Source: an uncultured Candidatus Binatia bacterium (GTDB lineage: Bacteria > Desulfobacterota > Binatia > Bin18). From it: a stretch of DNA of 64,000 bases. Below, piece by piece: positions 4,587-64,000 of this stretch (position 1 is its first letter; every line of letters starts with the position of its first letter). The DNA is taken from NCBI GenBank assembly GCA_965214755.1, contig OZ243979.1, positions 1,923,251 through 1,987,250 of the forward strand, in the 5' to 3' direction. The notes below the pieces were generated by a model. That model searched no databases. It saw only the letters and a program-made list of their open reading frames with translations, and was not told the DNA's origin. The position numbers were made by a program, and so were the translations under genes.

Positions 4587-6326
4587 TCAGCGGGGAATAA
4601 TCGGCAGCACCACATGCGAGGGATGCGCCTCGTCATGAAACACGCGCTGGAGAGCCGGCTCTAAGCGACTGGCCTCACCGCTGGCCTCGCCAGTTTGCGG
4701 ATTGCGATCAAAACGCGGAAAGTTTGCGCTGGCAACTTCAAGCCGAATGCGATGCCCGGCCTTGAAGACATTGCTGGTTGCCCACACGTCTAGCGTAAAC
4801 GCGTAGACCTCACCGGGCTGGAGGAGCGTGGCCTGGGCTTTCGAGGTCCGATAGCGGCCACGAATGATGCCGTCCGTCAGGTTCTGCGCGTATCCTTCGG
4901 GATGCACATCCACCAGCTTGGCCGTAAAATCCGTATCAACCGCGCTGGTCGCCGCATACAGCGTCACCGTGACCGGCCCGGTGACCTCGACATCCTGCTC
5001 AAGGACGGGGGTGGTATACACCAGCACGTCTTCCCGCTCTTCCACGGAACGCTGATCGAACGCCCCGCCAGGAACGGCCGCCGGCCAGCAACATAGCCCG
5101 CCGCCTTTGGTCGGAACGGGGTGACGCGGGTCGGAAACGAAGATGTCCACCGGCTCGCTGCGCGGAGCCTCGGGGCTCAGGCCGCCATCCCCGTGCAGGC
5201 CGTTCGCCTTACCGGCGCTGTGCAAATAGTATGGCGTGTACTGCGTCCGAGCCAGTGGCCATTCGTTCTCATTCCGCCACGCATTCTCGCCCATGACAAA
5301 AATACGCACCCGCGGCTCTTCCAGCAGGCCGTTCTGTTTGCCTTTGAGCCAGTAGTCAAACCAGCGCAAGTGCAGCCCGTCCAGGCCCGCGGCCAGTTGC
5401 GTCGTTGAGAGCCCAAAATTTGCCTCACCCACAACATTGTTCAGCGGGAGCGCATGATGCCACGGACCGATAACGAGCTTTTGACCGTCGCGGGCCTCCG
5501 GCGTAGCACCGCGCTCGCGCATACCCAGATAATTGCGGATCGTGCCCCCCAGGAAGATGTCGTACCAGCCGCCGACATTACAGGCCGGAACGGGAATCGT
5601 GTCATGCCGGTTTTCGATATTGAACTGCGCCCAGTAGTCGTCGTCATCAGGATGTGCCACCCAGTCGTAAAAGTACGGTGCAGACTTCTGAAAGAATGGA
5701 AAATCCGTGAGCGGCAGGTGACGAAAAGCCTCACACATGTCGTCGATCCCGGACAGAAGCTGTCCCACGTCGTCCCGCAGCTCAGGCTGTTCTTTCGCCA
5801 GACGCATGGCCGTATCGGGCGCCAGACCGGTCATGGTCCAGCTTGCGTTAAACCCCAGCGCAAAGGCCCCGCCCTGATACGTCCAGCCTTCGTGATAATC
5901 GGAGGCCGTAATCAGCGGGAAGATCGCTTTCAAATGGGGCGGCTGGCTCAGCGCGGCCAACCATTGGGTGGCCCCGACGTAGGACGCACCATACATACCC
6001 ACATTGCCGTCTGACCACGGCTGCACGCCACACCACTCAACCGTGTCATAGCCGTCGGCTATATCATCGCGAAAGGTGTAAAACTCGCCGTCCGATGCGT
6101 AGCGTCCCCGCGAGTCCTGGATAACAACGGCATAGCCCTCACTAGCGGTTCGGATAACATCAAGCATGAGCATGGCTATCGTCGTCAGCCCCTTGTCGTA
6201 CGGGGTCCGCTGCAAGATAACCGGATGCCTTCCCGTTGCCGGACGATAGACATCGGCGCGCAGCAGCGTGCCGTCCCGCATGGGGACGGCCACATCTCTT
6301 TCAACCGTCAGAGTAGACTCGCTCAT
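4587..6326 (-). CDS. CocE/NonD family hydrolase (S15 X-Pro dipeptidyl-peptidase-like)
   Basis: About 580 aa. CocE/NonD hallmarks (PYDKG; GxSYxG-like MYGASYVG). Start moved to MSESTL, which has an AGGAGG SD. Confidence 0.8.
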   Translation of the reverse strand: MSESTLTVERDVAVPMRDGTLLRADVYRPATGRHPVILQRTPYDKGLTTIAMLMLDVIRTASEGYAVVIQDSRGRYASDGEFYTFRDDIADGYDTVEWCGVQPWSDGNVGMYGASYVGATQWLAALSQPPHLKAIFPLITASDYHEGWTYQGGAFALGFNASWTMTGLAPDTAMRLAKEQPELRDDVGQLLSGIDDMCEAFRHLPLTDFPFFQKSAPYFYDWVAHPDDDDYWAQFNIENRHDTIPVPACNVGGWYDIFLGGTIRNYLGMRERGATPEARDGQKLVIGPWHHALPLNNVVGEANFGLSTTQLAAGLDGLHLRWFDYWLKGKQNGLLEEPRVRIFVMGENAWRNENEWPLARTQYTPYYLHSAGKANGLHGDGGLSPEAPRSEPVDIFVSDPRHPVPTKGGGLCCWPAAVPGGAFDQRSVEEREDVLVYTTPVLEQDVEVTGPVTVTLYAATSAVDTDFTAKLVDVHPEGYAQNLTDGIIRGRYRTSKAQATLLQPGEVYAFTLDVWATSNVFKAGHRIRLEVASANFPRFDRNPQTGEASGEASRLEPALQRVFHDEAHPSHVVLPIIPR

Positions 6327-6336
6327 ACTCACCTCC

Positions 6337-7278
6337 TTAATTTCCCGACACGCTATCGACCTGTCCGAACAGTGCGGCCAGTCGCTCACAGTCCACCAAC
6401 GGCAGCGGTTCTTTGAGCAGCGCGGTTATATTTTCTTTGAGATGCTCGACGCTACCGGTGCCGGTCAGGACGCTATCCATACCGGGCTCATGCCGGCAGT
6501 AGCGGTAGGCGGCCTCGGGGATAGTCTCGGCTTTTCCCGTGTCAGTCAGAAAACCAAGCAGGTCCGGTGTCTCACACAGGGCGGGGTCGACTTGGTTTCT
6601 ATCTCTGAGCTCGGCCAGAATCTTTTTCAGATGAGCCGGTCGGCTGAGCGCGTTCCGCACGGCGAACATGCCCATGGTCCCCATGTTCTTGGCCTGGGTG
6701 TGCGGAAACACCCGCTGACGGGCAGATTGGTTGAGCAGATTGAAGCCGACCATCACTACATCCCAGCAGTCATCTTCCAGAGCCCGTTTGAGCATGGCGT
6801 GCTGCGGGTCGGGAATAAACGCCTCGGTCACGCCAAGAAAGCGGACCTTGCCCTCCTCGCGCAACCGGGCCAGCACGGGAGCGAACGTACCGTGCGCATA
6901 TTGATATTGCTCGGGTCGCACCCCGTGGAGATAGAACACGTCCACATAGTCGGTCTGTAGGCGTTTGAGGCTGTGTTCCACGCCACGCCGCAGCTCTCCG
7001 CTTGGGTCGTCGCCCTCAGGGGCCGGACACAGCTTTTTAGTGGAAATCACCACTTGGTCGCGGCCAACGTCCTGTATCGCCTTGCCGACAATACGCTCCG
7101 TCCCATACGCCTCAGCCGTATCGATGAGGTTGATACCCAAGTCTAAGGCGTGCCTGACAACGCTAATGGATTCCTGCTCGGTTTTGCCCGTTTTCTGTCC
7201 CAGCCGGCTGTGGCCGCCGCACCCAAGGCCGGCCACACTGACTCTGAGGCCGGTCCGTCCGAGGGTCGTGTATTGCAT
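6337..7278 (-). CDS. Aldo/keto reductase
   Basis: MQYTTLGRTGLRVSVAGLGCG, IDTAEAYG and similar AKR motifs. Start taken at MQY rather than the far-upstream M of the listed ORF. Confidence 0.8.
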   Translation of the reverse strand: MQYTTLGRTGLRVSVAGLGCGGHSRLGQKTGKTEQESISVVRHALDLGINLIDTAEAYGTERIVGKAIQDVGRDQVVISTKKLCPAPEGDDPSGELRRGVEHSLKRLQTDYVDVFYLHGVRPEQYQYAHGTFAPVLARLREEGKVRFLGVTEAFIPDPQHAMLKRALEDDCWDVVMVGFNLLNQSARQRVFPHTQAKNMGTMGMFAVRNALSRPAHLKKILAELRDRNQVDPALCETPDLLGFLTDTGKAETIPEAAYRYCRHEPGMDSVLTGTGSVEHLKENITALLKEPLPLVDCERLAALFGQVDSVSGN

Positions 7279-53871: not shown

Positions 53872-55146
53872 ATGTCTTTTTTCACCCGCCGTCAATTCTT
53901 CGGCATAGCCGGGAGCCTTCCCTTTGCTCGTCTGCTGACCGGCAGAGCGCGGGCGAACACCCATGCCAGGGTCGTCGTTGTTGGCGGAGGTTTTGGCGGG
54001 ACGACCTGTGCAAAATATTTACGCTTAGCTGACCCAAGCCTGGAGGTCACGCTGGTGACCCCACAGCGTCAGTTTATCACCTGTCCGTTCAGCAATGCGG
54101 CCCTAGTTGGTCTGCGTTCACTTACCTCGTTGACCTATACCTACCGGCGGCTCCGGGAACGCTATGGCGTACAGATTGTCCACGCCCGGGCACAGGAGCT
54201 TGATCCGATCGCGCAGCGCCTCATACTCAGTGATGGTAGTACAGTGGCCTATGACAGGCTTGTCTTGTCCCCTGGTGTTGAACTGCGTTGGGACGCAATA
54301 GAAGGTTACAACGCTGAAGCCAGTACGGTGTTCCCGCACGCTTGGCAGGCCGGTTCGCAAACGCTGCTGCTGCGCCGCCAACTGGAGGCCATGGAGGATG
54401 ATGGGCTGGTGGTGATCAGCGCGCCGGAGACGCCCTACCGCTGTCCACCAGGGCCGTACGAGCGGGCCAGTTTGATTGCCCACTATCTCAAAACCCACAA
54501 GCCAAAATCAAAAGTCTTATTACTTGACGCTAAGGACGGTTTTACTAAGGACAGGCTGTTTCTGGCCGCGTGGAAACGGCTGTATCCGAGTCTGCTCGAA
54601 TGGGTACCCGGCGCGCAGGGTGGGCGGGTCACCCACGTTGATACTCGGGCCGGCATCGTCCGCACAGAGTTTGACGAGTATAAACCCGCGGTAGCTAACC
54701 TCGTTGCCCCGCAGCGCGCGGCGGCCATTGCACGGGCAGGCAGCCTCGACGCCGGCACAGGCTGGTGCCCCGTACACGGCAGTACATTTGAATCCCGGGT
54801 ACATGCCAATGTTCATATTATTGGCGACGCGGCTATCGCCAACCCCATGCCCAAATCCGCCTTTAGCGCCAATAATCAGGCCAAGGTCTGCGCCGCGGCC
54901 ATTGTGGCCCTGCTTCGGGGCGAGCCGATTGCATCGCCGGCATTGATGAATACCTGCTACAGCCTTGTCGCGCCTGACTACGGCATCTCTATCAGTGCGG
55001 TGTATTCCGTCGAAAACGACGCGATTCAGATTGTCCCAGGGTCGAGCGGAACCAGTCCGCCTGACGCGCCGGAGACAACCCGCGCGCTCGAAGCGGCCTA
55101 CGCCCACTCATGGTACGCCAATATTACAGCCGATACGTTTGGGTAG
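53872..55146 (+). CDS. fccB: Flavocytochrome c sulfide dehydrogenase flavoprotein subunit (FccB/SoxF-like), Tat signal
   Basis: RRQFF Tat motif. VVVVGGGFGGTTCAKY FAD-binding. FCSD family length. Confidence 0.8.
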   Translation: MSFFTRRQFFGIAGSLPFARLLTGRARANTHARVVVVGGGFGGTTCAKYLRLADPSLEVTLVTPQRQFITCPFSNAALVGLRSLTSLTYTYRRLRERYGVQIVHARAQELDPIAQRLILSDGSTVAYDRLVLSPGVELRWDAIEGYNAEASTVFPHAWQAGSQTLLLRRQLEAMEDDGLVVISAPETPYRCPPGPYERASLIAHYLKTHKPKSKVLLLDAKDGFTKDRLFLAAWKRLYPSLLEWVPGAQGGRVTHVDTRAGIVRTEFDEYKPAVANLVAPQRAAAIARAGSLDAGTGWCPVHGSTFESRVHANVHIIGDAAIANPMPKSAFSANNQAKVCAAAIVALLRGEPIASPALMNTCYSLVAPDYGISISAVYSVENDAIQIVPGSSGTSPPDAPETTRALEAAYAHSWYANITADTFG

Positions 55147-55159
55147 AGGCGACGCTCCG

Positions 55160-56452
55160 ATGCACGGAAGCTATTGGAAAACTTTTGTCATTCAGGTCTG
55201 GATCGGACTTCTGGTGCTGGACGATCTCTACGCCCAGGGGAATTGGCAGGTCGACGGGCCGCAGGCCCGGCATGAAGGGATTCCCGTCTCATTGACCGAC
55301 CAGCCCGGCGATGCGGAGCGGGGATGGCGCATTGTGCTCGACCGGGAGCGCGGTGATTGTGTGGTGTGTCATGCCCTGCCGCAAAGAGGAAACATGTCTT
55401 CCAATAGGCAGGCAGATGTTGACACGTTTCCTCTTTTGCCCGAACGCCGCTTTCACGGTACGGTAGGACCGTCCCTAGACACTATTGGGAATCACTATAC
55501 CGCTGCTGAGTTACGTCTGCGCCTGCTAGACTCCAAAGCGCTGAACCCTCAATCCATCATGCCGGCGTATCATACGGCGGCGGGCTTGCATGCCGTACTC
55601 GAAGCCTACCGGGGCAAGCCGATCCTCAGTGCGCAGGAAATCGAAGATGTTGTGGCCTATCTCTTGACCCTTCGTCAGAACGCTTCACAGGCTGCAGAAG
55701 CTCCCCAAAATCCGAGCGGTCCGCACCGCGAGACTTCTCCATACAGTGTGGCAGGCCGTCGCTCCGGTTATACCTATCTGTCGGAGGAGCACAGACAGTT
55801 ACAGGATGACGCGTTTGGCAATCCGGGGATGTTATGGGTCGAACGTGGCCGGGCGTTATGGGGCCAGACTCAAGGCGACAGCCAGCAGGCGTGCGCTGGT
55901 TGTCATGGAGACGCGGCAACAAGCATGCGCGGGGTGCGGACCCGCTATCCACAATTCGACCCTCGCACAGAGAAACTCATCAATCTGGGGCAGCGGATTA
56001 ACCGCTGTCGCACGGAGCAGCTCCAGGCCAAAGCCTATCCGTATGAATCCGAAGCCTTGTTGGCGCTCAGCGCATTTGTGAGTTTTCAGTCACGCAGGAT
56101 GCCGCTTGATGTGGACATCGAGGGACCGGCCGCACCGTTCTTCGAGACGGGTAAAGCATTCTTCATGCGCCGCCGCGGCCAGCTCGACATGGCGTGCAGC
56201 CAGTGCCACGATGCGTATGCCGGGCAACGCCTGCGGGGTGAGGTCGTCAGCCAGGGACAGACCAGCGGCTTCCCCGTCTATCGGCTGAGCTGGCAAACAC
56301 TGGGGTCGACGCACCGCATGTTTGCCTGGTGCAACACCGCAATTCGTGCCCAACCCCTGGCCCACGGGGCTGACGACTATGTGAATCTGGAATTATATCT
56401 GGCCTGGCGCGGCCGCGGCTTGCCGGTAGAGACGCCGGGCGTGCGGCGGTGA
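55160..56452 (+). CDS. soxXA: Fused SoxX-SoxA c-type cytochrome (three CxxCH motifs)
   Basis: N-terminal SoxX-like part (CVVCHAL...MPAY...VVAYLLTL). C-terminal SoxA-like part (CAGCHG; CSQCHDAYAGQRLRGE...FPVYRLSWQTLGSTHRMFAWCN...VETPGVRR). Confidence 0.75.
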   Translation: MHGSYWKTFVIQVWIGLLVLDDLYAQGNWQVDGPQARHEGIPVSLTDQPGDAERGWRIVLDRERGDCVVCHALPQRGNMSSNRQADVDTFPLLPERRFHGTVGPSLDTIGNHYTAAELRLRLLDSKALNPQSIMPAYHTAAGLHAVLEAYRGKPILSAQEIEDVVAYLLTLRQNASQAAEAPQNPSGPHRETSPYSVAGRRSGYTYLSEEHRQLQDDAFGNPGMLWVERGRALWGQTQGDSQQACAGCHGDAATSMRGVRTRYPQFDPRTEKLINLGQRINRCRTEQLQAKAYPYESEALLALSAFVSFQSRRMPLDVDIEGPAAPFFETGKAFFMRRRGQLDMACSQCHDAYAGQRLRGEVVSQGQTSGFPVYRLSWQTLGSTHRMFAWCNTAIRAQPLAHGADDYVNLELYLAWRGRGLPVETPGVRR

Positions 56453-56517
56453 AGGCAGGTAATAGATTTATGTTGCAAAGGTGAAGGCCTAACCCCTTGT
56501 TTATTTTTGACGATGTA

Positions 56518-57066
56518 TTACGTGAGAGTTCCCTCGAAGGGAAAATTGTCAAAAACTAATTTGGCAAGAACGTATATGCCCTGGTAGTCGTACTTCCGCC
56601 CTAATTTCGGTTCCCAATATCTCCCATGTGCCAACCAGTGTCTATATTTGAACGCGCCTCTCAAGTCAGAGAGGATACTGGACGCCACAGACGAGTTATC
56701 CTTCCATGCCGAAAAGATGTCGTCCTCTAAGGACACGCGTATTCCCTTTTGTTTGTGAATATCTCGGAGAGCTCTTGATAGGTGATCTTTTCTTCTCTTG
56801 TAGCAACGTTGCAAAAAATCAACACGAAACGCAGCTTCTAGGGCAGCAAGGACATTCATGGCTGAATTGTGATCGTGCTCTTCAAGAGTAACGCGCATTT
56901 CATTATAGATCTCGTCCAGAGTGTAACCGAAGAAGCGAACCTCATAGCGTGGGTTAATAGTGGAAAAATAATTTCTGATCGATGCCGCGATATCTTCATA
57001 ATATTGATTGATCTCAGAGATCTCGAGGTTCTCACCAGAGAAACTCACCCGCACCAGTCTACCCAT
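56518..57066 (-). CDS. Hypothetical protein with an Rx4H (RHWLAH) motif, possible HEPN-like; low-GC island
   Basis: 182 aa. Overlaps the upstream gene by 8 nt. No confident family assignment. Confidence 0.4.
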   Translation of the reverse strand: MGRLVRVSFSGENLEISEINQYYEDIAASIRNYFSTINPRYEVRFFGYTLDEIYNEMRVTLEEHDHNSAMNVLAALEAAFRVDFLQRCYKRRKDHLSRALRDIHKQKGIRVSLEDDIFSAWKDNSSVASSILSDLRGAFKYRHWLAHGRYWEPKLGRKYDYQGIYVLAKLVFDNFPFEGTLT

Positions 57067-57598
57067 TTACAACTTCCATCATTGCCGAGTAAAAAGACTC
57101 TTCTTCCAGTTCTATATATTTAATGTTGGGGGGGGGGGTCGCTATCTTCCACGCCCATTCGGTAATAGACGGTTTTGCCTCTTGAGTAGGTAGCTCTTCG
57201 CCCGGACCCCTTACGCGAATGCTTATTTTCGGTCCTGACGAACTCTGAGGCACGAGGACAAACCTTACTGTTCCCCGCGGACCGTTCATGTCCACTCTTC
57301 CCTTAGCACCGATGAGGTTGGTTCCAATTGGTTCAAAGTGAATCTTGCTGCTTCCGATCGTTACAACGAGAAACTGAGCATCATAGATTCCGATGGACCC
57401 CTCATGCAATTGTCTTTTCCCGGAGTCTATCTGGACTTTTCCTTCGACAACATACTTCTGCAAAAAGCGTTTAACTCGGTTATAAAATTCATCTAGATAC
57501 TCCATCCACTCCTCAAGCTGTTTGCTCCAATCAATTTCCTGTTGGGAGGTCCATTCTGCTTGCTGGTTGACAAATTCATCAAAGAATTTACTGCTCAT
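57059..57598 (-). CDS. Hypothetical protein containing a C11 homopolymer tract (encodes TPPPN)
   Basis: 179 aa, low GC. The G11 run at 57128-57138 on the plus strand lies inside the coding sequence. Confidence 0.4.
   Translation of the reverse strand: MSSKFFDEFVNQQAEWTSQQEIDWSKQLEEWMEYLDEFYNRVKRFLQKYVVEGKVQIDSGKRQLHEGSIGIYDAQFLVVTIGSSKIHFEPIGTNLIGAKGRVDMNGPRGTVRFVLVPQSSSGPKISIRVRGPGEELPTQEAKPSITEWAWKIATPPPNIKYIELEEESFYSAMMEVVNG
57128..57138. repeat. G11/C11 homopolymeric tract inside a CDS
   Basis: 11 consecutive G (plus strand), in frame in the current sequence. Confidence 0.9.
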
Positions 57599-57784
57599 GG
57601 GAATTCCCTCTTCCTGTGGTGCACGTGGCAGACGGCATTCAGACCGGGCCGTATATTTACCCTACTAATTTCAGATATTCAGCCTATCTGTATGTTCATC
57701 AGATGGGCTCTCATACTCCTCAGTTAGCTTTACACTATCTCAGGACTTTCGAGAATAGAAAAGAGTCTTAAAGGAGCTTGGACT

Positions 57785-58354
57785 ATGAACCGACTGCTGA
57801 CACATTATTGCGTTGACGTACAACATCCCGAGGTCAGCGGCGCGGAGCATCTGGAAATGTTAAAGATTCGGGATCAATTGTCGGATGTTGAGGCAACGCT
57901 GAGCGAAGCAGAACGGCAACAGTTAGCCGAGGCCGACCGGCTGCTGGTCATGCAAGCGGAGGTCGTCTCTCGGGGTTTGCTGAAATTTCTTAACCTTTCC
58001 CAGCATCGTCAGACTACCCACATCCCACCGGAGCGGTGGTGGTATCTGGACGTTGTCCGCCATGTTCCCTATCTAGGGCAAGTCAAAAAAGCCATCACCT
58101 CTATTAAGAAAGATGTTTTCCTCACAGGTGACGTTTTACGAGTACTTAAGGGCCACTATTACAGCGACACAAAAACACCAGCGGGTGCTTCTCGTAATGC
58201 TCAGTTTGGGAAGTTCCTGAAAAGAAACGCCCTGGATTTGGGCATCATTGAAGTGGAGAGCCTTGTTCGAACTAAAGATGACGCCGGTAACAGAACGACC
58301 AACTCTAGGTGGCGAAAAAGCGACTCACGAGGAGATCGAATAGCGCCTTGGTGA
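57785..58354 (+). CDS. Hypothetical protein
   Basis: 189-aa ORF in the low-GC island. No recognised domain. Confidence 0.35.
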   Translation: MNRLLTHYCVDVQHPEVSGAEHLEMLKIRDQLSDVEATLSEAERQQLAEADRLLVMQAEVVSRGLLKFLNLSQHRQTTHIPPERWWYLDVVRHVPYLGQVKKAITSIKKDVFLTGDVLRVLKGHYYSDTKTPAGASRNAQFGKFLKRNALDLGIIEVESLVRTKDDAGNRTTNSRWRKSDSRGDRIAPW

Positions 58355-58435
58355 GCTCGATTCTGGCCATATGGAGCTTGTAGCATGGGAAGTAAGCCGT
58401 AGGGTGGCTTGCGCTCCGCTAATCCAACCTACTTC

Positions 58436-58977
58436 ATTCTTTCTTGAATTCGTCCCAAATATCGGAAAGCCAAATTACCTTATCCGCGTAGCTTTGAAGA
58501 TCTGGAGATAGACTATTTTCGTATCCAGTAATCCATATCTCTTTGTGTAATTCCTCTTTATGCGAAGGCAATTGCGTCTTCAAAATCGCCATCCCCTGCT
58601 GAGAGTATAAGACGCGCGTACTGGTCCTGCGCGGTCAGTTTTACGATGAGGGTAGCTATGCCAACATCTACCCCTTTCTGTACAGTTTTTTTGAACTGAT
58701 TATTACACTCATGACATTCCATATGGATATTTTTCAGCTTATAGAGCATAACTCTCATCTTTGGACCTCGCGGGGGAGCAGATTTAAGCTAGGTATGAAA
58801 ACTATCCTGAGCATCCGTAGGTGGGTTTGGAGTCGAATCTAGATAGAAGCTCTCGGCGAACGGAGTCTAGATCTCTTTTTCAAGTACCTTTTTTAACCGT
58901 AGGTAGTCGAACTTGCCCTTGTCTTGGTATGCACTGAACAGGTAGCCCGCGTCAGCGATCCAAATGTTTCGTTCCTT
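58436..58977 (-). pseudogene. NYN/LabA-like (PIN-fold) protein gene with two in-frame TAG codons and a terminal T-insertion frameshift
   Basis: MEKERNIWIADAGYLF...EKEI TAG ...TAG...MECHECNNQFKKTVQKGVDVGIATL...SAGDGDFEDAIAFA, then frame +1 ...EELHKEIWITGYENSLSPDLQSYADKVIWL. Confidence 0.6.
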
Positions 58978-59189
58978 TTCCATTGTATTAATCTCCCTTG
59001 CGCCTGTTAAAAATATGGAGGTATCGGATTACGCGCCGCCCATCCGCCCACCGCTTACACCTCTCCCCGTGGCCCCGGGATGCCCGGAATCTTCACCCAC
59101 ATCCTGCCCATCTCACCAAACGTAGGGATAAACAAGGTCTTCCAGTCATCGCCCCGCCCAGCGGTGGGGGGCGTAATAGCTCAGCCCTA

Positions 59190-61457: not shown

Positions 61458-62594
61458 ATGATGGAGCCACTCAAGCCAGAGGTGATGTTCAGGCAGGTCG
61501 CTGGCTTAGCCAGCGACTTACGACGGTTGACCCACCCGTTTGAGCAGCAGGTGCGGGCGGCCCTCACGCCGTCGGAATGGCAGGCAGTGAAAAAGGTTTA
61601 CCTCACCGGGGACGGGGACTCCTACCATGCCTCGTGCGCCGCTGAAATAGCTTTTGAGGCTATGGCCGGCGTGGACTGTGAGCCGCTGAGCGCACAACGT
61701 TTTCTGGACTACGGCGCAGCCTGGATGCGTCCCGCTGCGCAGCATCAGACCCTGGTGATTGCCACCTCGGCCTCGGGTAGTACCGAGCGCGTCGTGCAAG
61801 CGATTAAACGGGCCAAAGAGCACGGCGCGTTGACCCTGGCGCTCACCGGTACGCCCAACAGTGCGGTCACACAGGTGGCGGACCGTGCCATTACGGTCGA
61901 ACTGCCGCAAAGAGAACGCTCTCCAGGGATTCGTACCTACCAAGCCAGTCTGGCAGGAATGCTGTTGGCGGCGATTCAGTTAGGTGAGTGGCAAGGCAGG
62001 TATGCCCAAGAAGAAGCAGAGCGTCTGCGCCGGGAACTGGTTGATCTCGCCGATGTTGTGGTCGCCACCACGAACGCTATTCAGGTAGGCTGTCGGGAGG
62101 TGGCAGACACGATTGCCGCAAGCCCCGTTGCGGTCGTGCTGGGCAGTGGGCCGAGTTATGGCACCGCCCTCTACAGTGCGGCAAAGCTGATCGAGGCCGC
62201 GGGGATTTTTGCCATAGGGCAGGACTTGGAAGAGTGGTGGCATGTTGAACGTTTTGCCTATCCGATGGACATGCCGGTTTTTATTATTGCCCCGCCGGGC
62301 CGCTCGCATTGGCGGGCAGAGAGCGTAGCAGCAACTGCGCGCGGCTTGGGCCGACGAGTTATTGTCGTGACGCACAAAGACGATACCCAGGTCGCCCGCC
62401 ATGCTCACATGGTGTTACCCGTCCCCGGCGAGGTGCGCGAGGAGTTTTCACCCTTGCTCTACCATCTGTTTGCCAGCTATGTAGCGGCCCATGTCGCCGA
62501 GCGTTTAGGTCGCTGTCCCTTCCAAAGCGACCGGCCTGAATTGCTCCGCTCGGTGAACGACTACTTCGCCCGCCAGCGACAGGATGCCGATTAA
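61458..62594 (+). CDS. SIS-domain sugar phosphate isomerase/deglycase-like protein (two SIS domains)
   Basis: SASGSTERV and a second SIS region. Sits downstream of the BtpA-like gene, as in frl/sgc-type clusters. Confidence 0.7.
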   Translation: MMEPLKPEVMFRQVAGLASDLRRLTHPFEQQVRAALTPSEWQAVKKVYLTGDGDSYHASCAAEIAFEAMAGVDCEPLSAQRFLDYGAAWMRPAAQHQTLVIATSASGSTERVVQAIKRAKEHGALTLALTGTPNSAVTQVADRAITVELPQRERSPGIRTYQASLAGMLLAAIQLGEWQGRYAQEEAERLRRELVDLADVVVATTNAIQVGCREVADTIAASPVAVVLGSGPSYGTALYSAAKLIEAAGIFAIGQDLEEWWHVERFAYPMDMPVFIIAPPGRSHWRAESVAATARGLGRRVIVVTHKDDTQVARHAHMVLPVPGEVREEFSPLLYHLFASYVAAHVAERLGRCPFQSDRPELLRSVNDYFARQRQDAD

Positions 62595-63750
62595 AGACAT
62601 AAGAATCCATCAGCTTCCATTTCATCTCACTCTGCTCTTCGGAAGATTTTCCCTCAGCATCTCCCTTGAAGCAGAGCTTTTCTTTTGGGTCGCCAGATTC
62701 GTTCCACCAGGAGACCTCCAATTGAAGGTAGAGGGGACATTCTGCGTTCATACTCAGCGGTTTCCACCAAAAGCCTATAAAACCGCCGGAACGATTAGAA
62801 ACGTCCTCCCAGCCCATCCATTCCTCGTCGGTTCCCTTACACAGCTCACACTCGAACCTCCGATACAACCCTTCCCAGGCGAGTTTATCGTCTCTGTTTT
62901 CTTCTTCTCGCGTCCATTTACAGTAGCTCTCGGTGCGTTCCTCAATTCCCCGCAGGTATTCTCGGAAGTCTACGAGAATCGGGTGAGAGCCACTGTATTT
63001 CTTCAAGACCTGCAGGAAATCTTTTCGGCGAAAGAGTTTATAGCCGCATTTCTCAATTTTTTTGTCCTCAGCAAGAGACTGGTTCCCTGTCTTGAGTTAA
63101 ATAGGATGGACATTATTCTCGTTAACTTCTCCAAAGCCCGTCTCTCCAGTGATTACGGCCTTGTAGTACCGTGCTAACTTATCCTCGCGATCTTTCGCCA
63201 TCGTCTTATCCTCAATCAGAAGAACGTATCTTTCGTTGATCCGAGCGAAGATGTCGATTTTCTTATCCTGCTTACGAATCTCAGCCTTGATGTTCCTGTC
63301 AAACCGTACCCAGTCATCCCTTTTGTGATTGAGGAGCGCTTGTACGAATTCACGACCACAGGCGCGCAGTACCGCCTGATCCTCATCAACGCAAGTATTC
63401 TCATTCTGGCCCGCCCAGGCGATCAGCCAGCAGATCATCGCATCCTGGGACACTTCCTTCGTGGCGTAGCGAAATATATTCGGGCGACAACCTTTGTTGT
63501 CACTTGCCATAACATCCGCTTCTCTCTCTGTCCGCCATATCCCCCAATTGGACGCGCTTGGTCTCTTGCCCGATCTCATACAGGAATTCTGGAGCAAAGT
63601 CCGCTCCGTTCGGCCACTCAATCGTGTTCGTCTCACTATTGACCCTGGCCTGTTTGAAAAAACCCACGTCTTTGAGCGGTTCAAACACCTCACCGTGAAG
63701 TTCTCCTCGCAGGTCCACTTCTTTGACCACCCCATCATTGAACTCGACAC
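62590..63750 (-). pseudogene. PD-(D/E)xK nuclease-like gene interrupted by an in-frame TAA; low-GC island
   Basis: ORFs 63097-63750 and 62359-63006 are in the same frame, separated by TAA (63097-63099) and 30 sense codons. ...IDIFARINERYVLLIEDK... is a nuclease-like core. The 3' tail overlapping the SIS gene is probably not coding. Confidence 0.45.
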
Positions 63751-63799
63751 GAATTCTATACGCTTCGAGATAGCTAACGGCTGAGACGTGTAAAAACAT
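63500..63799 (-). CDS. DUF2442 domain protein
   Basis: MFLHVSAVSYLEAYRIRVEFNDG... is typical of DUF2442. Downstream of a DUF4160 gene. Confidence 0.65.
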   Translation of the reverse strand: MFLHVSAVSYLEAYRIRVEFNDGVVKEVDLRGELHGEVFEPLKDVGFFKQARVNSETNTIEWPNGADFAPEFLYEIGQETKRVQLGDMADRERSGCYGK

Positions 63800-63854
63800 A
63801 GCTCCTCTTCAGGCTAAAGGAGGAATCGGTACAAGAGGTCTTCTTTCTCTTGCC

Positions 63855-64000
63855 TACTCCCAGTTTCTGAGCAACTCCTGGTGGTATTTCTCCGACCACT
63901 CGAATATCAGCCTCAATGCCTGTCGTGACATCTTTCCTTGGACAATTCCCGTCTCAATTTCTACAAGGACTTCTTGTTCCTGATAGCGTGCGTGGAAGTG
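63855..64000 (-). CDS. DUF4160 domain protein, 5' partial (runs off the window)
   Basis: ...HFHARYQEQEVLVEIETGIVQGKMSRQALRLIFEWSEKYHQELLRNWE*, the DUF4160 family core. Confidence 0.6.

What the first reader, a model, noticed from the sequence alone, without database searches (positions are those of the whole stretch)
56518..57598. Overlapping two-gene module with a C11 coding homopolymer: possible phase-variable Abi/TA-like locus
Two co-directional low-GC ORFs overlap by 8 nt (57059-57066). The upstream ORF contains an 11-nt G/C run (57128-57138), currently in frame and encoding TPPPN. Slipped-strand mispairing would switch it off and on. The downstream ORF has an RHWLAHGRY segment that fits the HEPN Rx4-6H motif. 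The pair is surrounded by other decayed foreign genes (a NYN pseudogene). This could be a contingency-regulated toxin or abortive-infection module.
Basis: partly seen in the sequence, partly recalled or inferred. Interest (0 to 1): 0.6.

Follow-up and report, generated by a model that had tools for sequence, protein, structure and literature searches.

The report
Unannotated HEPN-like toxin–partner gene cassette
The two overlapping genes are an intact copy of a widespread, unnamed, mobile two-gene cassette that most likely pairs an RNA-cutting toxin with its obligate partner protein, and the run of 11 C's is a lineage-specific codon accident with no sign of being an on/off switch.

Summary

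The TA/Abi-like reading is supported by comparative evidence.
- Both proteins belong to large families with no Pfam, NCBIfam, PADLOC or PHROGs match.
- They are adjacent in about 150 loci from more than 15 phyla, on temperate-phage contigs, and on 3.7-4.7 kb Klebsiella ColE1-type plasmids.
- The 8-nt overlap is the family norm.
- B was never found with no trace of A, while A often persists beside a truncated or missing B.
- B carries invariant HEPN-type motifs (R142-x4-H147 with H/N at 143, and E77-x3-R81) at the helix positions that define HEPN RNases.
- Fold and profile searches did not prove HEPN homology.

The phase-variation reading is not supported.
- TPPP is a conserved amino-acid motif. 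The C11 run exists only in the window's own clade; the C-run is 7 or less in 150 other loci.
- Six contigs from at least four samples all read C11.
- The one apparent truncated allele is an assembly break.
- A slip would destroy the probable antitoxin.

Verdict: a new family of a known kind, of moderate interest.

The parts
57059..57598 (-). Gene A (179 aa): obligate upstream partner and presumed antitoxin or controller. The predicted structure has two N-terminal helices, a seven-strand beta domain and a C-terminal helix. No known family matches.
   Evidence: ORF. No Pfam, PADLOC, NCBIfam or PHROGs hit. Family of 2084 representatives at 50% identity with E<=1e-3. AF2 model pLDDT 84. Invariant E66, P90, G92, G100 and W150.
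56518..57066 (-). Gene B (182 aa): all-helical protein with HEPN-type catalytic motifs. Presumed RNase toxin or effector.
   Evidence: ORF. 825 or more homologous clusters, none annotated. AF2 model pLDDT 87, all-alpha. E77, R142 and H147 invariant in 144/144 sequences.
57059..57066 (-). 8-nt overlap (ATGGGTAG) between the A stop codon and the B start codon: a translational-coupling junction.
   Evidence: The same 8-nt overlap is found at 106 of 157 family junctions and a 14-nt overlap at 35 more. It is also present on the Klebsiella plasmids.
57128..57138 (-). C11 homopolymer (G11 on the + strand) formed by codons T154(ACC)-P155-P156-P157 (3 x CCC).
   Evidence: It is clade-specific: C11 in L001, L002, L003, L175 and L176, and 7 or less in 150 other loci.
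56614..56643 (-). RHWLAHGRYW segment of B (R142-x4-H147 is the HEPN Rx4-6H motif, with polar H143 after the R).
   Evidence: Reverse complement read directly. Conservation. Lies at the end of helix 129-146 and runs into the loop before the last helix, as the HEPN definition requires.
56824..56838 (-). E77-A-A-F-R81 of B: the Ex3[KR] acidic motif in the long second helix.
   Evidence: E77 in 144/144, R81 as R/K in 138/144. Helix 50-90. Motif definition from PMC3710099.
57603..57614 (-). Purine-rich Shine-Dalgarno-like stretch (AGGAAGAGGGAA) 4-15 nt upstream of the A start codon. This is an inference.
   Evidence: Read from the sequence. No consensus sigma-70 promoter was found upstream of A.
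56359..57758 (-). Extent of nucleotide homology (87%) with the more distant relative L003: the cassette plus about 160 nt on each side.
   Evidence: blastn.

Best explanation
A and B form an intact copy of a widespread, horizontally mobile, self-contained two-gene cassette that works like a toxin-antitoxin or abortive-infection module.

B is the effector. It is an all-helical protein whose invariant R142-[H/N]-x3-H147 and E77-x3-R81 motifs match the active site of HEPN metal-independent RNases, so it most likely cleaves RNA and arrests growth when unrestrained.

A is its obligate partner. It is translated first and coupled to B through the 8-nt overlap, and it most likely neutralises or gates B by direct protein-protein contact. 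It has a fold that no library recognises.

The C11 run is a by-product of three synonymous CCC codons laid over a conserved structural T-P-P-P turn in one lineage. It is not a designed switch.

Shown here: pairing, junction conservation, asymmetric decay, mobility, motif invariance, secondary-structure placement, and the clade-restricted, fixed-length tract.

Inferred: RNase activity, toxicity, neutralisation by A, and direct binding.
For: Pairing.
- B lies immediately downstream of A in 74 of 83 loci found through A.
- A lies immediately upstream of B in 86 of 86 loci found through B that have room for it.
- The junction overlaps by 8 nt in 106 of 157 cases and by 14 nt in 35 more.

Asymmetry typical of a toxin that depends on its antitoxin.
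- B is absent or truncated in 17 of 78 A-anchored loci, with no replacement gene.
- A is flagged in only 3 of 73 B-anchored loci, and an A remnant or full-length alignment was present in all three (Fisher p = 0.0014).

Mobility.
- The cassette occurs in more than 15 phyla.
- Immediate neighbours are heterogeneous and there is no conserved third gene.
- It forms a low-GC island in the window.
- It is on temperate-phage contigs alongside terminase, portal, CI/CII and integrase genes.
- It sits next to the replication genes on 3.7-4.7 kb Klebsiella ColRNAI plasmids, again with an 8-nt overlap.
- One in-frame A-B fusion exists (P0310).

HEPN features, using criteria quoted from PMC3710099.
- Rx4H lies at the end of the penultimate core helix and runs into the loop.
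- H or N follows the R in 141 of 144 sequences.
- Ex3[RK] is in the long second helix.
- There is a two-helix insert between them.
- HepT-type HEPN toxins (6m6w, 7ae2, 7ae6, 7ae8, 7ae9) make up 8 of the top 37 Foldseek PDB hits.
- hhalign chooses the active-site segment as the best local match to a verified DUF86 profile.

The window copy keeps every residue that is at least 93% conserved in the family.

The tract is incidental.
Against: - No statistically significant structural or profile match ties B to any HEPN family. Foldseek PDB E-values are 1.3 or worse. The BFVD search gave nothing informative. hhalign against DUF86 gave probability 0.17%. No Pfam HEPN model hits any of 33 members even at E<=10.
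- A is unusually large and well conserved for an antitoxin, and it has no recognisable DNA-binding domain.
- Defence genes are only sporadic among immediate neighbours (PtuA 3 of 136).
- No toxicity, neutralisation or RNase data exist.
Confidence: 0.6

Rival explanations
1. Phase-variable contingency locus. Slipped-strand mispairing at C11 reversibly switches A, and with it the module, OFF and ON, giving population heterogeneity in an Abi/TA function.
For: A C11 run is long enough to be slip-prone in principle (general knowledge of G/C tracts in contingency loci). It is the only homopolymer of 9 nt or more in the window. The three CCC codons are atypical for gene A, where none of the other 7 Pro codons is CCC. 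A +/-1 change truncates A and uncouples B. The tract survived the divergence to L003.
Against: - The tract is absent from 150 loci outside the clade, which keep the amino-acid motif but have C-runs of 7 or less, mostly 2-3.
- All six clade contigs from at least four samples read exactly C11.
- The only truncated allele in the 15-billion-protein collection is an assembly break with G-rich junk.
- Retention in L003 fits neutrality: third-position divergence is 18%, so four sites stay unchanged with probability about 0.45.
- About 0.1 triple-CCC cases are expected among 84 TPPP loci, so one clade with it is unremarkable.
- The tract sits in the gene that behaves as the antitoxin, so OFF would release the toxin.
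- The alternative frames end after 2-5 codons, so there is no alternative product.
Confidence: 0.07
2. Sensor-effector defence pair rather than a toxin-antitoxin. A is a positive sensor or activator, for example of a phage protein or a nucleotide signal, and it switches on the B nuclease. It does not act as an inhibitor.
For: - A is as conserved as B (mean column identity 55% against 62%).
- Its invariant polar and glycine residues (E66, Y72, G100-R101-x-D103, W150-K151) look more like a ligand-binding or catalytic site than a simple inhibitor.
- A has no DNA-binding domain.
- The pair occurs in prophage accessory regions and next to Septu PtuA in 3 loci.
Against: If A only activated B, B alone would be harmless and should persist alone about as often as A does. 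Instead B was never seen with no trace of A, while A often outlives B. Carriage on tiny multicopy plasmids fits addiction at least as well as defence.
Confidence: 0.2
3. A non-conflict function. A and B are two subunits of a housekeeping or accessory enzyme, for example in RNA processing or modification, that happens to be horizontally mobile. The R/H motif serves a non-toxic catalytic or binding role.
For: No test of toxicity exists. Homology to HEPN toxins is not statistically established. Many immediate neighbours are ordinary metabolic genes.
Against: - The phyletic distribution is patchy, genomic locations vary, and no metabolic partner is conserved.
- The pair is present on 3.7-kb ColE1-type plasmids and in prophages.
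- One gene decays asymmetrically.
- The pair forms a low-GC island next to a pseudogene in the window.
Confidence: 0.1

Closest known systems
HEPN-MNT (HepT-MntA) type II/VII toxin-antitoxin modules (DUF86/PF01934 toxin with a minimal nucleotidyltransferase antitoxin)
   Same: A two-gene, co-directional cassette with the partner gene first and overlapping the toxin gene. The toxin is a small helical protein with an R-[N/H]-x3-H motif followed by an aromatic Y-W (B: RHWLAH-GRYW; HepT profile: RNYVVH-xYW). It is mobile and abundant. HepT structures are the recurrent, though weak, fold hits.
   Different: The partner is not an MNT nucleotidyltransferase: it has no NTP_transf_2 hit and a predicted helix plus beta-sandwich fold. 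B is about 60 residues longer than HepT, with a helical insert. It shows no profile-level similarity to DUF86 beyond the motif. The Tyr is one residue further from the His than in RX4HXY.
Other HEPN Abi/defence effectors catalogued by Anantharaman et al. 2013 (AbiD/F, AbiJ, AbiU2, AbiV, RnlA/LsoA, ApeA, MAE_28990, pEK499_p136 and others)
   Same: Stand-alone HEPN-type proteins with a conserved Rx4-6H, encoded on mobile islands, prophages and plasmids, and predicted to be RNases used in conflict systems.
   Different: None of the Pfam models derived from those families matches B or 32 relatives, even at E<=10. None of the families in Table 1 is listed with a ~180-aa partner like A.
Phase-variable defence genes (homopolymer or SSR tracts in R-M mod/hsdS genes and BREX/Pgl methyltransferases)
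   Same: A long G/C homopolymer inside the coding sequence of a conflict-system gene, where a +/-1 change truncates the product.
   Different: There is no length polymorphism and no OFF alleles. The tract is restricted to one clade, and it lies in the presumed protective component rather than in a dispensable specificity or activity subunit.
PH-like / bacterial PH-domain folds (as a structural analogy for A only)
   Same: Seven beta-strands followed by a C-terminal helix. Btk and Trio PH domains are among the best Foldseek hits.
   Different: The hits are not significant (E 0.2-2, probability 0.15 or less, TM below 0.2). A also has a long N-terminal helical hairpin. No bPH Pfam model matches.

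Membership tests
HEPN superfamily (as defined in PMC3710099) | Conserved Rx4-6H motif | tested here: met
   R142 and H147 are present in 144/144 family sequences, with 4 residues between them.
HEPN superfamily (as defined in PMC3710099) | Polar residue (N, D or H) immediately after the conserved R | tested here: met
   Position 143 is H in 137, N in 4, Q in 1 and Y in 1 of 144 sequences. Criterion quoted.
HEPN superfamily (as defined in PMC3710099) | Second conserved acidic residue in helix-2, typically within Ex3[KR] | tested here: met
   E77 is present in 144/144. R81 is R in 136 and K in 2 of 144. Both lie in predicted helix 50-90.
HEPN superfamily (as defined in PMC3710099) | [quoted passage not shown] | tested here: met
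   In the AF2 model (pLDDT 87), R142-A146 close helix 129-146. H147 opens the loop 147-160 before the last helix 161-174. Helices 95-110 and 113-124 lie between the long helix and the motif helix. This rests on secondary structure only; the 3D packing was not inspected.
HEPN superfamily (as defined in PMC3710099) | Significant structural or profile-profile similarity to an established HEPN family | tested here: inconclusive
HEPN superfamily (as defined in PMC3710099) | Metal-independent RNase activity dependent on R and H | not testable with these tools
   Needs biochemistry.
HEPN-MNT (HepT/MntA) TA system | Toxin belongs to DUF86/PF01934 and the partner is an MNT nucleotidyltransferase | tested here: not met
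   Neither gene has a PF01934 or NTP_transf_2 hit. hhalign against PF01934 was not significant. A has a different predicted fold.
Type II toxin-antitoxin module (generic) | Two small adjacent co-directional genes, tightly coupled, mobile, with a patchy distribution | tested here: met
Type II toxin-antitoxin module (generic) | Toxin never found without its antitoxin, while orphan antitoxins and decayed toxins occur | tested here: met
   A hit upstream of B in 86 of 86 B-anchored loci with room. A flagged as damaged in 3 of 73, against B absent or truncated in 17 of 78 A-anchored loci, p = 0.0014.
Type II toxin-antitoxin module (generic) | Antitoxin carries a DNA-binding domain for autoregulation | tested here: not met
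   No HTH, RHH or AbrB domain in A by Pfam or NCBIfam. The predicted fold has no obvious DNA-binding module.
Type II toxin-antitoxin module (generic) | Toxin inhibits growth and the antitoxin neutralises it | not testable with these tools
   Needs expression experiments.
Phase-variable contingency locus | Slip-prone simple repeat in the coding region or promoter whose length change alters expression | tested here: met
   C11 in codons 154-157 of A. A +/-1 change gives a product of 159-161 aa and +/-2 gives 158-162 aa.
Phase-variable contingency locus | Tract-length polymorphism, with ON and OFF alleles among strains or reads | tested here: not met
   Six contigs from at least four samples all read C11. 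The only short allele is an assembly artefact.
Phase-variable contingency locus | Repeat maintained across homologs or beyond codon-usage expectation | tested here: not met
   C-run of 7 or less in 150 loci outside the clade. A single triple-CCC clade fits chance, with about 0.1 expected per 84 TPPP loci.
Known anti-phage defence systems (PADLOC-DB v2.0.0) | Match to a catalogued defence-protein model | tested here: not met
   No PADLOC hit for A or B at E<=1. Later catalogues were not available.

The most novel reading that the evidence does not exclude
A and B define a previously undescribed, very widely distributed toxin-immunity or abortive-infection family. In it, a protein of novel helix-plus-beta-sandwich fold controls a HEPN-type RNase by a mechanism unlike the known HEPN antidotes (MntA AMPylation, or RnlB/Dmd binding). 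A could, for example, be a ligand-sensing or enzymatic controller, given its invariant E66, Y72, G-R-x-D and W-K residues.

In the window's lineage, the slip-prone C11 run in the controller gene would additionally produce cells that lose the controller at a mutational-hotspot rate, stochastically unleashing the RNase. That would amount to built-in bet-hedging or suicide.
Probability: 0.12. Interest if true: 0.7.

Novelty: new variant of a known kind. Interest (0 to 1): 0.42.

Why it matters
HEPN RNases are the effector of choice in many conflict systems, including HepT, RnlA, Abi proteins, Cas13 and Csm6. This cassette would add a large, completely unannotated family with a partner protein of unrecognised fold. 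The A superfamily has about 2000 representatives at 50% identity, and B has more than 800 clusters at 90% identity.

It is experimentally tractable, because a homologous pair sits next to the replication genes on 3.7-4.7 kb ColE1-type plasmids of clinical Klebsiella and in P2-like prophages. If confirmed, it would explain how those cryptic plasmids are maintained, or what they protect against. It would also give annotators a name for two very common 'hypothetical proteins'.

The negative result matters too. A long coding homopolymer over a conserved poly-proline motif is not evidence of phase variation on its own, and such tracts break short-read assemblies and seed bogus truncated proteins in public databases.

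Tried and rejected
- Family libraries. Pfam, NCBIfam, PADLOC and PHROGs gave no hit for A or B. Scanning 33 B members at E<=10 gave only scattered noise and no HEPN model.
- PDB sequence-profile searches with both family alignments returned only noise from de novo designed helical proteins and troponin.
- JGI 'YutE/DUF86' label on member P0119. It could not be reproduced against PDB sequences. The recurring weak hit there is a local resemblance of WLAHGRYWxPKLGxxYDYF to the RNase T2 CAS-II segment of 1jy5 (E 0.19-1.6). I rejected it because it is not significant and RNase T2 is alpha+beta.
- Profile-profile test against a verified DUF86/HepT alignment built here. I repeated it with a more diverse B alignment and with relaxed and global modes. 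None was significant.
- Search for OFF-phase alleles. The 158-aa cluster member P0387 looked like a C9 slip product but is a contig that dissolves into G-rich junk at the tract.
- Programmed frameshift or alternative product. The alternative frames stop after 2-5 codons.
- Conserved third gene or defence-island signal. Immediate neighbours are heterogeneous.
- Replacement effector where B is missing. None was found.
- Rfam, tRNA and repeat scans of the region found nothing. No convincing promoter or terminator was found.
- Literature. No description of this pair turned up. The HEC-08 HEPN defence protein (DUF3644) is a different family.
- Cultured-phage GenBank set and E. coli complete genomes: no copy.
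Full report
**1. The observation**

All the stated sequence facts are correct.
- On the minus strand, ORF A (57059-57598, 179 aa) precedes ORF B (56518-57066, 182 aa). They overlap by 8 nt, ATGGGTAG.
- The + strand carries G11 at 57128-57138. On the coding strand this reads ACC CCC CCC CCC AAC, giving T154-P-P-P-N.
- It is the only homopolymer of 9 nt or more in the 64-kb window. As a bare pattern it is not significant against dinucleotide shuffles.
- B contains R142-HWLA-H147-GRYW (56614-56643).
- The pair lies in a low-GC stretch (about 0.45 against 0.60 in the flanks).
- An NYN-domain fragment lies nearby at 58561-58758 (PF01936, partial).
- A length change of +/-1 or +/-2 truncates A at 158-162 aa. 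The new stop falls 46-54 nt before the B start codon.

**2. What the genes are**

Neither protein matches any model in Pfam, NCBIfam, PADLOC-DB v2 or PHROGs. Both nevertheless belong to large, well-conserved families of stand-alone proteins of about 180 aa.
- B has 825 homologous clusters with E<=0.01, none of them annotated.
- A has 147 clusters by the word-indexed search. The exhaustive profile search finds 2084 representatives at 50% identity with E<=1e-3.
- The window copy retains every residue that is at least 93% conserved in the expanded family alignments, so it is intact, unlike its pseudogenised neighbour.

**3. A fixed two-gene cassette**

- In 83 loci retrieved through A (80 genomes of different species plus three close relatives), B lies immediately downstream in 74.
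- In 86 loci retrieved through B that have room upstream (76 metagenomic, 10 IMG/VR viral), A lies immediately upstream in all 86.
- The junction is stereotyped: an 8-nt overlap at 106 junctions and a 14-nt overlap at 35 of 157.
- No third gene is conserved. Immediate neighbours span 128 Pfam families, mostly ordinary metabolism, with occasional defence or TA genes (PtuA in 3 of 136, Fic in 2).
- The hosts span many phyla, from Pseudomonadota, Desulfobacterota and Acidobacteriota to Latescibacterota, Aquificota, Bacillota, Campylobacterota and Patescibacteria.
- The viral loci are genuine temperate-phage regions with terminase, portal, GPO scaffold, CI, CII, integrase and lysozyme. The pair sits among accessory genes such as SRAP, S24 peptidase, ImuB and Dam.
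- A 30-32% identical pair sits next to the replication genes (Rop, RNA I replicon) on 3.7-4.7 kb ColE1-type plasmids of Klebsiella and Raoultella, again overlapping by 8 nt. It has also been captured in 135-177 kb plasmids, for 18-19 records in all.
- One database protein, P0310, is an in-frame A-B fusion.

**4. Asymmetric decay**

Where B is missing from A-anchored loci, nothing replaces it. A stands alone or beside a truncated B in 17 of 78 loci with room. Several of these are in Latescibacterota, where the locus appears vertically inherited.

In B-anchored loci, A is flagged as damaged in only 3 of 73 and is never wholly absent (Fisher p = 0.0014). A gene that cannot persist without its partner, while the partner outlives it, is the expected signature of a toxin and its antidote. 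It argues against A being merely an activator.

**5. Is B a HEPN protein?**

The defining features were taken from Anantharaman et al. 2013 (PMC3710099):
- a four-helix core;
- Rx4-6H at the end of helix-3, running into the loop to helix-4;
- a polar N, D or H right after the R;
- an acidic residue in helix-2, typically within Ex3[KR];
- an insert between helices 2 and 3.

B meets each sequence and secondary-structure criterion.
- R142 and H147 are present in 144 of 144 sequences.
- Position 143 is H or N in 141 of 144.
- E77 is present in 144 of 144, and R81 is R or K in 138 of 144.
- In the AF2 model (pLDDT 87, pTM 0.82), E77-R81 lie in the long helix 50-90. Helices 95-110 and 113-124 form the insert. 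R142-A146 close helix 129-146, and H147 opens the loop before the last helix 161-174.

Statistical proof of homology is lacking.
- Foldseek against the PDB gives no hit better than E = 1.3, although HepT-type HEPN toxins (6m6w, 7ae2, 7ae6, 7ae8, 7ae9) account for 8 of the top 37 hits.
- BFVD gives nothing informative.
- I built a verified DUF86/HepT (PF01934) alignment from an ORF found in a fetched locus. hhalign aligned only RHWLAH-GRYW to RNYVVH-YW, at probability 0.17%.
- A more diverse B alignment did no better.

I therefore call B 'HEPN-like by motif and topology, homology unproven', and put the probability that it is a true HEPN RNase at about 0.7.

**6. What is A?**

The AF2 model (pLDDT 84) shows an N-terminal helical hairpin (3-19, 24-51), seven beta-strands, a disordered variable loop (126-144) and a C-terminal helix (166-178).
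- Foldseek finds nothing significant. PH domains are the recurrent weak hits, and the strand-plus-terminal-helix topology is PH-like, but this is only an analogy.
- Invariant residues (E66, Y72, P90, G92, G100-R101-x-D103, W150-K151) cluster in the beta domain.
- The T-P-P-P segment links strand 6 to strand 7, just before the conserved C-terminal helix. A slip would therefore delete strand 7 and that helix.

**7. The C11 tract**

- T154 and P156-P157 are conserved family-wide, while position 155 is P, S or R. The amino-acid motif is therefore under selection.
- The homopolymer is not. Among 150 loci outside the window's clade, the C-run at this site is 2-3 in 112 and never exceeds 7. Among 84 loci with exactly TPPP, CCC makes up 10.7% of the codons, so about 0.1 triple-CCC cases are expected.
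- C11 is found only in the window and its close relatives: L001 and L002 (94% aa identity), L003 (79% aa identity, 89% nt identity across the two genes), L175 and L176. All of them share the soxA-adjacent insertion site, so they represent a single ancestral event. Every one reads exactly C11.
- Retention in L003 is compatible with neutrality.
- The only shorter allele in the public protein collection, P0387 (158 aa), comes from a 5x-coverage short-read contig that degenerates into G-rich junk right after 'GCGACCC'. That is an assembly break at the homopolymer and does not represent a slip variant.
- The alternative reading frames terminate after 2-5 codons, so there is no hidden product.
- The tract lies in the presumed antidote. 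OFF variants would still carry B with its own weak GGAAG ribosome-binding site, and would be expected to harm themselves. That would also explain why only in-frame alleles are seen.

Phase variation is therefore unsupported, though it is not formally excluded without read-level data.

**8. Mechanism proposed**

- Transcription starts from the roughly 160-nt conserved upstream region. A is translated from a strong purine-rich RBS, and B is translated by coupling at the 8-nt overlap.
- A binds and holds B inactive.
- Loss or displacement of A frees B to cleave RNA through the R142/H147/E77 site and arrest growth. Triggers could be plasmid or prophage loss, a phage-induced shut-off of host synthesis, or a specific trigger.
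- Steps shown here: gene architecture, co-inheritance, asymmetry, mobility, motif invariance and placement.
- Steps inferred: RNase chemistry, toxicity, neutralisation, and the trigger.

**9. Comparison with known systems**

- The cassette works most like HEPN-MNT (HepT/MntA) and other HEPN toxin modules.
- It is not a member of DUF86/HepT-MntA. That was tested and not met: there is no PF01934 signal and no MNT partner.
- It matches none of the HEPN families with Pfam models.
- The 2013 HEPN census lists no family with such a partner.
- Recent HEPN defence reports that I found concern other families.

I rate it a new variant of a known kind: a new HEPN-like effector family with a novel partner.

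**10. Verdict**

Interest is moderate. New HEPN families are not surprising to specialists. This one is, however, unusually widespread, wholly unannotated, has a partner of unknown fold, and is readily testable on small Klebsiella plasmids.

Noticed in passing
window 58080-59016: A segment of about 0.94 kb is present in the window but absent from the syntenic relatives L001 and L002. They carry an SGL (PF08450) gene at the corresponding place. The segment holds the NYN-domain fragments (58561-58758, PF01936 partial, and probably 58434-58592). This looks like an indel or replacement event next to the cassette.
   Followed up: partly
window 57785-58354 (+): A 189-aa ORF divergent from gene A, with no family hit. 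Only its first ~98 codons are conserved with a 108-aa ORF in L001/L002. The rest runs into the window-specific segment, so the ORF may be chimeric. It is not part of the conserved cassette: L003 has an IS1595 transposase at that position.
   Followed up: partly
L174 3720-3788; L175 1-50; protein P0387: Low-coverage short-read assemblies break exactly at the C11 tract. One contig ends in G-rich junk, which has put a bogus 158-aa truncated protein into the public protein collection. This is a caution for anyone mining 'frameshift alleles' at homopolymers.
   Followed up: yes
L177 (NZ_CP044041.1) 1472-2582; L178 (NZ_CP092518.1) 1746-2856: ColRNAI/Rop plasmids of 3.7-4.7 kb from clinical Klebsiella and Raoultella carry a 30-32% identical A/B pair with the same 8-nt overlap. 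The two genes are WP_064279389.1 and WP_040173808.1, both annotated 'hypothetical'. The same pair is also embedded in 135-177 kb Klebsiella plasmids.
   Followed up: partly
protein P0310 (297 aa): An in-frame fusion of a full A-like protein to the N-terminal two-thirds of a B-like protein (it contains LEARFHIDYL). It ends before the Rx4H motif. It could be a natural fusion, a pseudogene, or a product cut off at a contig end.
   Followed up: no
B residues 113-164 (window 56575-56730): The segment WLAHGRYWxPKLGxxYDYF repeatedly gives a weak local match to the RNase T2-type CAS-II region (W-x-K-H-G-T...P-x-L-G-x-x-Y-x-Y-F) of PDB 1jy5, with E = 0.19 for P0119 and 1.6 for the family profile. It is not significant and the folds differ, but the resemblance around a catalytic His is curious.
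   Followed up: partly
window 53872-56452; L175 723-4464: The cassette is inserted directly downstream of a sulfur-oxidation cluster. This comprises the flavocytochrome c sulfide dehydrogenase flavoprotein (53872-55146) and a SoxA/TsdA-type dihaem cytochrome (about 55000-56452), with SoxY and SoxZ further along in the relative L175. The 495-aa TTG-initiated SoxA ORF in the window is longer than the 430-462 aa called in relatives, so its start is probably over-extended.
   Followed up: no
window 62400-64000: A second drop in GC (to 0.46-0.52) with strongly negative GC skew at the end of the window. It may be another foreign island.
   Followed up: no
L041 5534-6741: In one alphaproteobacterial locus, A and B are separated by about 1.2 kb. 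The inserted DNA carries an ORF on the opposite strand (6067-6705) with a helix-turn-helix-like N-terminus. It may be an IS insertion splitting the cassette.
   Followed up: no
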